Source: Escherichia coli
Lineage (GTDB): Bacteria > Pseudomonadota > Gammaproteobacteria > Enterobacterales > Enterobacteriaceae
Strand: one strand, 5' to 3'
Assembly: GCF_050320075.1 (NCBI RefSeq)
Contig: NZ_CP190018.1
DNA: 64,000 nucleotides
The position numbers were made by a program. Shown piece after piece: positions 21,001 through 24,000 of this stretch. Numbering within the stretch: position 1 is the stretch's first letter; the number at the start of each line of letters is the position of its first letter.

Positions 21001-24000
21001 TGATGTGGATACCGCAGCAGGCCGACTGAAACGCTATTACAAGTTTTACTCGAATGATGAGGTAAATGCGATCCGCAATAACGGCACAACTGACGGAAAA
21101 TGGCAGGCAAGTGCGATTATTGACAATGGGCATATCTGGGATGCGATGCCGGGCAGTTACTACAAAATGGGAGGAAACTGGCGTAAAGGCAGCTTTGATG
21201 ATCACCTGACGATTGAGGTGGAAAAGAACGGTAAGGGAAGCCGGGTCTATATCACCTATGCTTCAGCTTCTCAGGCGCATTTGCAGGCAAGTTCTCTTGA
21301 GCCTCTGTTTAAGCGAGTGAAGGATGTGGCTGAAGGAAAGGTTCGTTGATGAGCACGCCACGGGCAAGCCCTTATGGCTAAAGGAGAGGGAGATTGCCCG
21401 TGGCGGCCCACTTTTTTTAATCATTTTTTTACCATGTTGTCCAGTATTTTTACATAAGTGAAACATCTGGTGTTGTTTTCTGTTCATCGTGCTGGAAGTT
21501 ACAGGGCTTGTAATTGAACGGGGAGAGATGTAATTTACGTGCGCAAAAATTTTACTCAAGGGGGAGAAAACCGATGAAACCGAATATCCATCCTGAATAC
21601 CGTACTGTGGTGTTCCACGATACCAGTATCGATGAGTACTATAAAATTGGTTCGACCATCAAGACTGAACGTGTGATTGAGCTTGATGGTGTCACCTATC
21701 CGTACGTAACAATTGATGTTTCCTCTAAGTCGCATCCTTTCTACACTGGCAAACTGAGAACTGTTGCTTCAGAAGGTAACGTGGCGCGCTTTAACCAGCG
21801 TTTCGGTCGTTTTGTTGACACCAAAAAAGGCGCATGAGCAGAAATCGATCACAGGCGCGATTGATATGGAAAGGTATTGCATGAGTGTCTGAGGTCGGTT
21901 ATTTTACGTTTCACAAGAAAGAAGCACTTAAACAGAAACTCACAGTCCATATTCCTTCATCCCCGGTTACGGGGATTTTTTTTAGCTGTTGTCTGGGGAG
22001 GGAAGGGGGCTGTGTCGGGCTGGGAGCTGTAAGGCTGCGATTGTCCGGGTGATGTCTGAACATGCGGTATGTTTGCGTTAAACAAGGGGGGAGTATGTGG
22101 ATACTGATTTTCTGGCTTTCAACACCATATTCAGTGTCATCCAGTGTTGCCAGACAACCAACGCTTGCTGTTCATTCTCAGGAGTTCGCCAGCGAAAGGG
22201 CCTGCAGGAATGCGCTGGCTGAGATGAAGAAGGTGAATGTCGGAGAACTGACCCTGAGGGGGATCTGTGTCTCAAAAGAATAGTGGGGTAGAGGGAGCGA
22301 ACCAGGCTGTTTTATCAGGATGTGATTCTGGAGAGTCCGCTCGCCGCAGTCCGGCGACCGAACGGTAGTGAGCGAGCGGACGAGGAAGCGGAACGTCACA
22401 GTTCTTTCATAATGCACCTACGCTGTGTGGTTACATGGGTAAAGGATGAATATCACCATTCTATATCTGTTTCTGAAAAACAGTTTCGCTTGTTGCCTGT
22501 CATTGCCGGCTGGCGTTAGCATACAGAGGCGGTATTATCCCCTGTGATATTACGGGTTATTTTGTTTTGCTCTGTAAGACCTGGCCAGCTATTATGCTGG
22601 CCTTTTTTGTGGTTTATTGTTCGCAGTCCAGCATTGCAAATAATTTTCGTTTCTGTTCCTTCACATACTCAACATCAACAGTACAATCCAGATAACTTAA
22701 CTCATCTTCTGTCCAGGCATTGATGGATTCTTTTATTCGGTGTGTCACATCCGGTGTGAGTATGTCGCGCATTTTCTCAATGGTATCCCGGCTTATTTCT
22801 CCTCGTGGAGATTCAAGCAGAGGAATTACTGCCTGATGTCCCGGAGGGAGTATAAGACGTAATTCATATTTAAGTGTTTCGTTGAGTAAACGACAGAAAG
22901 CACTGTATTTCTCTTTCCGGGTACTGTTCATCGTTTATTCCTTCTCATTACTGTGCATGGTGTAAGATTAAAGCGTTTTGCAAAAGATGTACAAGTTGTT
23001 TTTATCCGGATTTAATATCATGGACTCACTTTTCTTTTGTGTCAGTGGGTACTGCATTGTTTATTAGCCACGGCAATTGTTGATTACCCTGTATTTTTCG
23101 GATGTAGTTATCAATAATATCTTTTGTTTCATCACTATTATTATAAAAAGATTCAAGTGTGCATATAAAATCATCATTTAATGCAGGTAGCAGGATTATG
23201 TTTTTTACTGTGAACCTGATATGACGATTACTCAGTGTTTTTAAATAAAGTTTCTTTCCAATAACAGGATTTACATTGAAAATATTGTAACAGATTTCCA
23301 CTGTGTTTTCTGAAGGTGCGTATAATACGTATACCGGATATTTTTTATGAAGTTTTATCAGGCAATTTATAAAGTCTAAGGAATTTGTTTGTTTTGCTTT
23401 TTCTCGCATCTTATTTACGTGTTGCGAAAAGAAATATGCTTTTGTAAATATAAAAAGAAAAATAAGCGCAGTGTTTAACAGAAATGTGATGGCAATTGTT
23501 ATAAATAACCATTTACCTGAACCTGTATTAAAGATATGGGATGAAAGATACCCACCTGTCAGCAACAAAAATATAAATAATAATGACTGCATTTTTTCCT
23601 GGTTGTTTATTGATGATTTCAGACACAGAAATATAACAACACATGCAAAGCTCCAGAAAAATATAACAGCAAAATCCATATTATCACCTTTTGTCTGACA
23701 GTTCATTTGTTGATGCTATCACGATATTCGCGATGCGGTAAATATATCAATATGTTGGTTTATTTGTGTAATACATTATTTCCCATATGCCATAAATCAG
23801 TCTGTTGACGATAGCTTTTTTCTTTTGTTATTCTGTTCCCGCATTAACTGTCGCTTCGGCGACCAACCAATCTCCCGGTGGTCTGAGAGGGAGGCTTACG
23901 CGACCACACTGTCATCTCAGGATGACCAGCCAATGTTCCGGCAGTCTGAGAGGAGCGCCTTCGGGTGACTGCAATATCCCATGAGCCTGGAAGAGGATGC

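What the first reader, a model, noticed from the sequence alone, without database searches (positions are those of the whole stretch)
22614..23679. AT-rich two-gene module encoding a three-helix membrane protein and a small soluble protein
About 30 percent GC in an island that is otherwise above 50 percent marks separate acquisition. The pairing of a membrane protein and a small partner, both with RBS, resembles abortive-infection or toxin-immunity modules.
Basis: inference. Interest (0 to 1): 0.45.

Follow-up and report, generated by a model that had tools for sequence, protein, structure and literature searches.

The report
Two unrelated orphan genes in ICE
The AT-rich pair is real, but it is two unrelated uncharacterised accessory genes side by side in a variable slot of an E. 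coli conjugative element, not a demonstrable toxin-immunity or abortive-infection module.

Summary
Both ORFs exist on the minus strand, each with a Shine-Dalgarno site. Gene B (22614-22931, 105 aa) is a soluble helical bundle. Only A is about 30% GC (30.1%, the GC minimum of the window). B is 41%.

The window is an ICEEc2-like (pKLC102/PAGI-2/SPI-7 family) ICE at pheV. The pair lies between the traG end of the type IV secretion (T4SS) genes and the STAXI/EFASI-integrase-ArdA region.

The two genes are not co-inherited.
- A belongs to a tiny, fast-diverging, Enterobacteriaceae-only family (24 clusters among 1.84 billion proteins). Outside these islands its members sit alone between housekeeping genes. 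In a sister ICE the A homologue is followed by a colicin E1/Ia-immunity homologue instead of B.
- B belongs to phrog_1853. In 45 of 45 viral loci its relatives sit between holin S and endolysin R of lambdoid prophages, next to a DUF1327/phrog_1085 protein, never next to A.

Best guess, at low confidence: A is a stand-alone protective inner-membrane factor (exclusion or immunity type), and B is an independent phage-derived moron. Interest is modest.

The parts
23026..23679 (-). Gene A: 217-aa inner-membrane protein (3 TM helices plus a basic cytoplasmic alpha/beta domain), stop codon included. Alternative upstream ATG at 23706; RefSeq start at 23592.
   Evidence: ORF list. 24 family representatives, with full-length matches from residue 1. 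AF2 pLDDT 85.7, pTM 0.74. Hydropathy across the family. GC 30.1%.
23425..23679 (-). Codons 1-85 of A: three transmembrane helices. Predicted N-terminus out, C-terminus in, by the positive-inside rule (inference).
   Evidence: Charged loop KSSINNQEK and the K/R-rich stretch after TM3 are read directly from the sequence.
23029..23424 (-). Codons 86-217 of A: juxtamembrane helical stalk and a conserved alpha/beta domain. Near-invariant residues are E128, N132, L149, R152, F178, Y192, I196, P203 and W204. No catalytic motif is recognisable.
23299..23424 (-). Allelic mosaic patch (codons 86-127). It holds 27 of the 41 nucleotide differences from the 89%-identical allele found in sister copies of this ICE.
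   Evidence: positions; pS 0.275, pN 0.20. Both are high, so this is imported by recombination rather than in-situ positive selection.
23684..23691 (-). Shine-Dalgarno site of A (AAAGGTGA, 4 nt before the ATG).
   Evidence: Read from the sequence.
22932..23025 (-). 94-nt A-B spacer. It holds B's Shine-Dalgarno site (GAGAAGGAA, 22938-22946). No terminator-like site was found, so co-transcription is possible but unproven.
22614..22931 (-). Gene B: 105-aa soluble, mildly acidic helical-bundle protein of the phrog_1853 family.
23680..23909 (.). Divergent control region between A and the STAXI element. Weak sigma-70-like sites for A on the minus strand (23770..23741, 23750..23721), and a plus-strand site at 23805-23834 facing STAXI.
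   Evidence: Consensus scan only; 9 sites found against 6.2 expected, so not evidence of function.
23910..24069 (+). STAXI motif: a conserved landmark lying divergently upstream of A in this ICE, in the SCU-106 ICE and in the EDL933 island (context, not part of the genes).
   Evidence: Rfam 89.1 bits against gathering score 40.5. Same arrangement in L018 and L010. Homology blocks.
22583..22602 (+). Plus-strand intrinsic-terminator-like hairpin abutting B's stop codon. It ends a convergent plus-strand transcript and marks the left edge of the A/B insert.

Best explanation
The span holds two independently acquired accessory genes that happen to be neighbours, not a co-evolved module. They occupy the variable slot between the traG end of the T4SS genes and the STAXI/EFASI-integrase-domain-ArdA establishment region of an ICEEc2-like (pKLC102/PAGI-2/SPI-7 family) ICE inserted at pheV.

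Shown:
- Gene A encodes a member of a very small, rapidly diverging, Enterobacteriaceae-only family.
- The protein has three N-terminal TM helices followed by a basic alpha/beta domain with no detectable relative of known structure or function.
- Members of the family function without B, because most are solitary chromosomal genes.
- Gene B is a distant ICE-borne offshoot of phrog_1853, a helical protein otherwise confined to the S-R lysis-cassette insert of lambdoid prophages.

Inferred (mechanism, low confidence, about 0.3):
- A sits in the inner membrane with its N-terminus out and C-terminus in.
- It acts alone as a protective, conflict-type factor. It would use its membrane-tethered cytoplasmic domain to block something that enters or acts at the inner membrane: incoming conjugative or phage DNA, or a membrane-targeting toxin.
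- B is an autonomously expressed moron of unknown role.
For: Context:
- The window is 99.99% identical to E. coli YZLc1-3, with TIGR037xx ICE genes, a TraI relaxase, an integrase and tRNA-Phe.
- pheV is a known ICEEc2 insertion site (PMC11537424).

Not a module:
- A homologues stand alone between argA and recD (Serratia), ghrA and phoH (Salmonella salamae), beside phoH (an Enterobacteriaceae MAG), proP and lplA-like (Entomohabitans), infA and type I-F cas (Intestinirhabdus), in a tRNA-Leu island (E. coli), and near DUF1440/IS110 (Salmonella). B is undetectable by tblastn in all of them.
- In 45 of 45 viral loci B relatives lie in S - DUF1327/phrog_1085 protein - B (opposite strand) - R, with no A.
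- hhalign finds no relation between A and the phage partner.
- The GC content of A (30%) and B (41%) matches their separate families.

Fixed in this ICE, variable between ICEs:
- traG at 95% identity or more occurs in 35 genomes, the same number that carry A/B.
- The sister ICE SCU-106 (traG 85%) and the EDL933 island keep an A allele of only 41-42% identity in the same L31...STAXI slot. There it is followed by a colicin E1/Ia-immunity homologue instead of B.
- More distant ICEs lack A.

Conflict-type signature:
- Family members are only 20-40% identical although confined to one bacterial family. Two phoH-adjacent members are 36% identical.
- There is a mosaic allelic patch in the cytoplasmic stalk.
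- Neighbours in the slot are Hok/Gef and a colicin-immunity homologue.
Against: - Solitary A genes are mostly not in defence islands. Only one of the settings adjoins CRISPR-Cas.
- A and B are on the same strand, 94 nt apart, with no terminator between them, and are inherited together in all 35 copies of this ICE lineage. A lineage-specific functional coupling cannot be excluded.
- The sister allele also has a small gene directly downstream, so 'A plus a variable small partner' could be a real pattern within ICEs.
Confidence: 0.5

Rival explanations
1. One reading: A and B form one two-gene abortive-infection or toxin-immunity operon, with a membrane effector and a small soluble partner.
For: Same strand, 94-nt gap, no terminator-like site between them, and each has its own RBS. 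They are co-inherited in all 35 E. coli genomes with this ICE lineage, and in L010, L012 and L013. The sister A allele is also followed, 46 nt downstream, by a small gene that is an immunity-family homologue.
Against: A is solitary in at least 7 other settings, where a convergent housekeeping gene begins 15-30 nt after its stop. B's family has a different, fixed partner in phages. The downstream partner is non-homologous between the two ICE alleles. There are no PADLOC, Pfam or NCBIfam hits for either protein or their relatives. The two genes have different GC content.
Confidence: 0.1
2. A is the ICE's entry-exclusion protein, a functional analogue of F TraS and SXT/R391 Eex. It would be an inner-membrane protein of the recipient whose cytoplasmic part is recognised by the donor's TraG.
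For: Predicted inner-membrane protein with a cytoplasmic C-terminal domain. It lies about 2.9 kb downstream of the TraG_N gene and is fixed in the ICE lineage. Alleles diverge strongly (41-42% identity) between ICEs whose traG genes are 85% identical, and there is a mosaic patch in the cytoplasmic stalk. TraS and Eex act through cytoplasmic determinants on TraG, and exclusion genes usually adjoin their target gene (PMC11493245).
Against: It is not adjacent to traG; five genes intervene. It is absent from more distant ICEs of the same family. Most family members are chromosomal solitary genes with no conjugation genes nearby. A lipoprotein gene (20777-21349) lies close downstream of traG and is conserved in a distant ICE (L078), which makes it a better positional candidate.
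Confidence: 0.12
3. A is an orphan immunity protein against a membrane-acting bacteriocin or contact-dependent toxin of Enterobacteriaceae.
For: Three-TM inner-membrane architecture like E1/Ia-type colicin immunity proteins. AT-rich, solitary, patchy, confined to Enterobacteriaceae and fast-diverging. The sister allele is directly followed by a true colicin E1/Ia-immunity homologue, so the slot collects immunity-type genes.
Against: No cognate toxin gene lies next to any sampled family member. hhalign against the immunity family gives a probability of only 1.5%. The conserved 120-130-residue cytoplasmic domain has no counterpart in pore-forming-colicin immunity proteins.
Confidence: 0.13
4. 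A is a single-gene anti-phage factor (superinfection exclusion or abortive infection) acting at the inner membrane.
For: Carried on a mobile element, AT-rich and fast-evolving. One homologue adjoins type I-F CRISPR-Cas. B comes from a prophage moron family, so the slot exchanges genes with phages.
Against: No PADLOC hit for A or five relatives. No structural similarity to viral proteins in BFVD. Most homologues lie between housekeeping genes rather than in defence islands.
Confidence: 0.13
5. Both genes are selectively near-neutral, probably H-NS-silenced ORFan cargo with no significant function in this host.
For: No functional homology at all. Extreme AT-richness typical of xenogeneic-silenced DNA. 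dN/dS of 0.6-0.7 between the two ICE alleles of A.
Against: Both reading frames are intact and conserved at 20-40% identity across genera or phages, with confident and consistent AF2 folds. The C-terminal third of A is under strong constraint: 0 non-synonymous changes in codons 128-217 between alleles. Both genes are retained in all 35 ICE copies.
Confidence: 0.12

Closest known systems
Entry-exclusion proteins TraS (F-like plasmids) and Eex (SXT/R391 ICEs)
   Same: Small to medium inner-membrane proteins encoded on conjugative elements near traG. Their alleles are highly divergent and their specificity lies in cytoplasmic regions (PMC11493245). A shares the predicted location, a cytoplasmic domain, allelic divergence and proximity to traG.
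   Different: No sequence or structural similarity was found. A is not adjacent to traG, is missing from related ICEs, and most homologues are chromosomal genes far from any conjugation system. No exclusion phenotype has been tested.
Colicin E1/Ia-family pore-forming-colicin immunity proteins (Pfam PF03526)
   Same: Three-TM inner-membrane proteins that are AT-rich and restricted to Enterobacteriaceae. A true homologue of this family occupies B's position behind the sister A allele.
   Different: Those proteins are 111-119 aa with no soluble domain. A is 217 aa with a conserved cytoplasmic domain. Profile-profile comparison is not significant (probability 1.5%). B is unrelated. No colicin gene is nearby.
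phrog_1853 proteins of lambdoid/Stx prophages (e.g. orf6 of Stx2-converting phage 86)
   Same: B matches the family HMM (E=7e-18) and aligns end to end with the 104-aa phage proteins. Shared residues include N17, E18, K21, H32, G44, W73 and the ELSYLDC motif.
   Different: Identity is only 35-38%. B is on an ICE, not between holin and endolysin. It lacks the invariable convergent DUF1327/phrog_1085 neighbour (tblastn of that protein against the window is negative). The family's function is unknown.
Class I holins (lambda S105 type) and single-gene membrane exclusion proteins such as P22 SieA, T4 Imm and lambda RexB (own knowledge, not tested)
   Same: Predicted N-out/C-in topology with three TM helices and a basic cytoplasmic C-terminus. 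An upstream in-frame ATG (23706) superficially recalls a dual-start motif.
   Different: A is twice the length of a holin and carries a folded conserved domain. It is never next to an endolysin. The upstream start is not conserved in the family. No Pfam or PHROG holin match rises above noise.

Membership tests
Two-gene toxin-immunity / abortive-infection module | The two genes are co-inherited across lineages | tested here: not met
   A homologues lack B in all non-ICE settings sampled (L004-L009, L014-L028). B homologues lack A in 45 of 45 viral loci and 2 reference phages.
Two-gene toxin-immunity / abortive-infection module | Operon organisation (same strand, short gap, co-transcription) | tested here: inconclusive
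   Same strand, 94-nt gap, no terminator-like site, separate RBSs. Transcripts cannot be tested here.
Two-gene toxin-immunity / abortive-infection module | Homology of either component to a known defence, toxin or antitoxin family | tested here: not met
   PADLOC 0 hits. Pfam and NCBIfam give only sub-threshold TM noise.
Two-gene toxin-immunity / abortive-infection module | Toxicity of one component neutralised by the other | not testable with these tools
   Needs an expression experiment.
Entry-exclusion factor (TraS/Eex type) | Inner-membrane protein with a cytoplasmic determinant | tested here: met
   Prediction only: three TM helices, and the positive-inside rule places the C-terminal domain in the cytoplasm.
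Entry-exclusion factor (TraS/Eex type) | Gene adjoins its target gene (traG/VirB6 homologue) | tested here: not met
   The TraG_N gene ends at about 20176 and A lies at 23026-23679, with five intervening genes.
Entry-exclusion factor (TraS/Eex type) | Present throughout the conjugative-element family and only there | tested here: not met
   Absent from related ICEs L077 and L078. Most homologues are solitary chromosomal genes.
Entry-exclusion factor (TraS/Eex type) | Reduces acquisition of the cognate element by recipients | not testable with these tools
   Needs mating assays.
Colicin E1/Ia immunity family (PF03526) | Sequence or profile similarity to the family | tested here: not met
   No PF03526 hit for A, B or the 20 A-family members. 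hhalign A1 against A7 gives probability 1.5%; A4 against A7 gives 0.2%.
Colicin E1/Ia immunity family (PF03526) | About 111-119 aa, three TM helices, no extra domain | tested here: not met
   A has three TM helices but is 217 aa with a large soluble domain.
phrog_1853 (gene B) | Significant match to the family HMM over the conserved region | tested here: met
   E=7.3e-18, residues 5-102 against profile positions 60-156 of 159. End-to-end alignment with the phage proteins.
phrog_1853 (gene B) | Synteny: holin S - DUF1327/phrog_1085 gene - B (opposite strand) - endolysin R | tested here: not met
   Present in 45 of 45 viral loci. No phrog_1085-type sequence is found in the window.
Gene A family (unnamed, 3TM plus C-terminal alpha/beta domain) | Full-length similarity and shared architecture with the 24 representatives | tested here: met
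   phmmer E-values range from 1e-122 to 1e-4. The full-length members, including P0028 and P0029 at about 1e-9, align from residue 1 and have conserved hydropathy.

The most novel reading that the evidence does not exclude
Gene A would found a new family of single-protein, rapidly diversifying inner-membrane exclusion or immunity factors specific to Enterobacteriaceae. Its membrane-tethered cytoplasmic domain, with a fold that has no detectable relative, would block DNA or toxin entry. ICE-borne alleles could set exclusion specificity against related ICEs. B could be an orphan neutraliser of the late phrog_1085 protein of lambdoid phages, which would make the slot a small 'protection cassette' site.
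Probability: 0.2. Interest if true: 0.6.

Novelty: new member of a known kind. Interest (0 to 1): 0.3.

Why it matters
If A proves to be an exclusion or immunity factor, it would add a new protein family and fold to the short list of inner-membrane proteins that control entry of DNA or toxins into enterobacteria. It sits on an ICE lineage that here carries mcr-1 and circulates in poultry-associated E. coli, so it could affect which strains can acquire or keep such elements. As things stand, the practical value of this check is negative. The pair should not be catalogued as a candidate defence or toxin-immunity system on the strength of its AT-richness and gene sizes.

Tried and rejected
- **Family libraries.** Pfam, NCBIfam, PADLOC and PHROG scans of A and B were run. 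Pfam was also run on every member of both alignments, and PADLOC on relatives and on the phage partner. The only real hit was phrog_1853 for B. The rest was TM-segment noise.
- **PDB sequence search.** For A, only a short ubiquitin-like 'KTLTGK' hairpin match appeared (E=0.003, 23 residues), judged coincidental. For B and the phage partner, nothing was found.
- **IncI ExcA-type exclusion.** tblastn of A against 72,556 plasmids hit only three records carrying the EDL933-type island. No plasmid exclusion gene was hit.
- **Relation of A to B's phage partner or to colicin immunity.** hhalign was negative for both.
- **Holin reading.** Rejected because of A's length and folded domain, the lack of an endolysin neighbour, and a dual start that is not conserved in the family.
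- **Genome-contig scan.** Taxonomic breadth therefore rests on cluster names and 11 context look-ups.
- **Positive selection in the allelic patch.** Not shown. pN/pS is 0.73 with a high pS, which indicates recombination.
- **Flank-difference counts.** The two counts at the end are misaligned by an indel and were discarded.
- **Roche et al. 2010 (ICEEc2).** The paper is not held in the library.
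Full report
**Observation**

The region holds two minus-strand ORFs exactly where stated.

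Gene A is 23026-23679 and encodes 217 aa.
- The ATG at 23679 follows AAAGGTGA.
- The mechanical ORF extends to 23706, and RefSeq calls a 188-aa product from 23592.
- Relatives match from residue 1 to about 210, with a conserved 'MD.SL.FFY' N-terminus. This supports 23679 as the start.

Gene B is 22614-22931 and encodes 105 aa. It is preceded by GAGAAGGAA.

GC content is 30.1% for A, 41.2% for B and 33.8% for the span. A is the GC minimum of the whole window: 29.4% against a mean of 52.5% (sd 7.1%), and only 0.19% of equally sized windows are as low. The flanks are 42-45% GC, not above 50%. The compositional claim therefore holds for A, less for B, and only loosely for the 'island'.

**Anatomy of the proteins**

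A has three hydrophobic segments, conserved in position across its family.
- AF2 on a 20-sequence alignment gives pLDDT 85.7 and pTM 0.74.
- The model has helices 3-22, 27-49 and 55-97. The third helix runs out of the membrane as a stalk.
- Helix 100-112, five strands and helices 175-179 and 183-197 follow.
- The K/R-rich sequence after TM3 and the charged first loop place the C-terminal domain (residues 80-217, pI 9.2) in the cytoplasm. This is inferred from the positive-inside rule.
- Near-invariant residues are E128, N132, L149, R152, F178, Y192, I196, P203 and W204. They suggest no catalytic motif.

B is a five-helix bundle (pLDDT 82) with pI 5.4 and no TM segment.

**Genomic setting**

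The window is 99.99% identical to E. coli YZLc1-3, chromosome positions 892587-956586. It is an ICE of the pKLC102/PAGI-2/SPI-7 type.
- It carries TIGR037xx/PFL_47xx T4SS genes, a type IVb pilus with a shufflon, a TraI relaxase and an integrase next to tRNA-Phe.
- pheV is a known ICEEc2 insertion site (PMC11537424).
- The local gene order is TraG_N - small minus-strand ORF - lipoprotein - type B L31 - 62-aa ORF - B - A - STAXI - EFASI - integrase-domain gene - STAXI - ArdA cluster.
- A and B point away from the STAXI/ArdA genes. Known leading-region anti-defence genes share a single orientation (PMC11541004).

**Are A and B a module?**

A's family is tiny: 24 representatives at 50% identity among 1.84 billion proteins. 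All named members are Enterobacteriaceae: E. coli, Salmonella, Intestinirhabdus, Pseudocitrobacter, Entomohabitans and Serratia.

Away from this ICE and its related islands, A genes stand alone. The settings are:
- argA|recD;
- ghrA|phoH;
- LysR fragment|phoH;
- proP|lplA-like;
- infA|type I-F cas;
- a tRNA-Leu island;
- near DUF1440/IS110.

In several of these a convergent housekeeping gene starts 15-30 nt after the stop, and B is undetectable by tblastn in all of them.

B belongs to phrog_1853 (E=7e-18). In two reference Stx2 phages and 45 of 45 IMG/VR loci, its relatives (35-38% identical) lie in a fixed arrangement: holin S - DUF1327/phrog_1085 protein - B homologue on the opposite strand - endolysin R. 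That partner is unrelated to A and absent from the window.

The A+B pairing occurs only in this ICE lineage. There it is fixed:
- 35 genomes carry A/B, and the same number carry traG at 95% identity or more.
- It is also present in L010, L012 and L013.

**Sister alleles**

A related ICE (SCU-106, traG 85% identical) and the EDL933 urease/tellurite-type island keep an A homologue in the same L31...STAXI slot, with Hok/Gef alongside. That homologue is only 41-42% identical to A, while the flanking DNA is 75-85% identical.

Directly downstream of that allele lies an unannotated 113-aa ORF.
- It is conserved at 96.5% amino-acid identity, against 85.7% for the A allele beside it.
- It aligns end to end with colicin Ia and E1 immunity proteins.
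- The Pfam PF03526 match is below threshold (E=0.012). About 1,300 plasmid tblastn matches fall mostly on annotated colicin Ia/E1 immunity genes.

The position behind A is therefore occupied by different, non-homologous small genes in different ICEs. More distant ICEs (traG 73-80% identical) lack A altogether.

**Evolutionary signature**

- A-family members are only 20-40% identical to each other despite their narrow taxonomic range. Two phoH-adjacent members are 36% identical.
- The 89% allele in sister copies of this ICE differs mostly in codons 86-127, the cytoplasmic stalk. There pS is 0.275 and pN is 0.20, which indicates imported sequence rather than local positive selection.
- Codons 128-217 have no non-synonymous change.
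- All family members are AT-rich relative to their hosts.

**Function**

Every homology route was negative for A and uninformative for B:
- Pfam, NCBIfam and PADLOC;
- PDB sequence search;
- Foldseek on BFVD.

What is shown is as follows. A is a real, conserved, stand-alone membrane protein with a constrained cytoplasmic domain. B is a real, phage-derived helical protein. The two are not a conserved pair.

What is inferred comes from several features of A taken together: membrane anchoring, carriage on mobile elements, AT-richness, very fast divergence, mosaic alleles, and neighbours such as Hok and a colicin-immunity homologue. These point to a protective or conflict role acting alone at the inner membrane. 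The candidates are entry exclusion, orphan immunity or phage exclusion.

- Entry exclusion fits the TraS/Eex precedent of cytoplasmic determinants and proximity to traG (PMC11493245). It is weakened by A's solitary chromosomal relatives, by its absence from related ICEs, and by a better-placed lipoprotein gene just downstream of traG.
- None of the three can be preferred on present evidence.
- A residual lineage-specific coupling of A and B cannot be excluded, because the genes share a strand, have no terminator between them and are always co-inherited here.

**Verdict**

The module interpretation is not supported. This is an ordinary kind of feature, ORFan cargo in a variable ICE slot, made of two uncharacterised families. 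Interest is modest at 0.3. The upside lies in A as a possible new exclusion or immunity family with an unmatched fold.

Noticed in passing
window 33372-38025: Composite transposon ISApl1 (internal stop) - pap2 - mcr-1.1 - ISApl1, inserted in the ICE beside traF. This is a chromosomal, ICE-borne colistin-resistance gene.
   Followed up: partly
window 23910-24069 (+), 26707-26860 (+), 24547-24669 (+): Two STAXI motifs (89 and 138 bits) and one EFASI motif (71 bits) precede the integrase-domain gene and the ArdA cluster. A third STAXI-like copy lies upstream of the ICE ssb region just outside the window (L030 5198-5446). The STAXI copy divergently upstream of A is conserved in the SCU-106 ICE and the EDL933 island.
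   Followed up: partly
L018 6718-7059; L076 12541-12203: An unannotated 113-aa ORF directly downstream of the EDL933/SCU-106-type A allele is an end-to-end homologue of colicin E1/Ia immunity proteins. It is an orphan immunity gene on an ICE or island, missed by RefSeq annotation of these records.
   Followed up: yes
window 20777-21349 (+): A 190-aa lipoprotein (lipobox LSAC) is encoded close downstream of the TraG_N gene. A homologue sits in the same place in a distant ICE (L078 11190-11753), and another ICE (L077) has a different lipoprotein there. It has no Pfam match. It is a positional candidate for the ICE's exclusion factor.
   Followed up: partly
window 21574-21837 (+): A type B (zinc-independent, YkgM-like) ribosomal protein L31 gene is carried by the ICE. 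It is conserved next to the A slot in the SCU-106 ICE and the EDL933 island (about 83% nucleotide identity).
   Followed up: partly
window 22300-22612 (+): A structured plus-strand region (MFE -108.5 kcal/mol, z = -2.7) holds a 33-aa hydrophobic ORF with an SD site (22446-22547) and ends in a strong terminator (22583-22602). It gives a weak SorX-like Rfam hit (28.6 bits, below threshold). It occupies the place where Hok/Sok sits in related islands, so it may be a type I toxin-like locus.
   Followed up: partly
window 40500-43800: The pilV shufflon segments are rearranged relative to the YZLc1-3 reference: inverted and shuffled blocks at 92-99% identity.
   Followed up: no
L002 / L003 and L031-L075: The lambdoid prophage lysis cassette carries a rigidly conserved two-gene insert between S and R. 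One gene is a modular DUF1327/phrog_1085 protein with variable N-termini and a conserved C-terminal domain of about 120 aa. The other is a convergent phrog_1853 gene. Neither is characterised.
   Followed up: partly
L006 5138-5779: A called '213-aa protein' next to the Intestinirhabdus A homologue is the translation of a tandem repeat of about 180 nt, not a gene.
   Followed up: no
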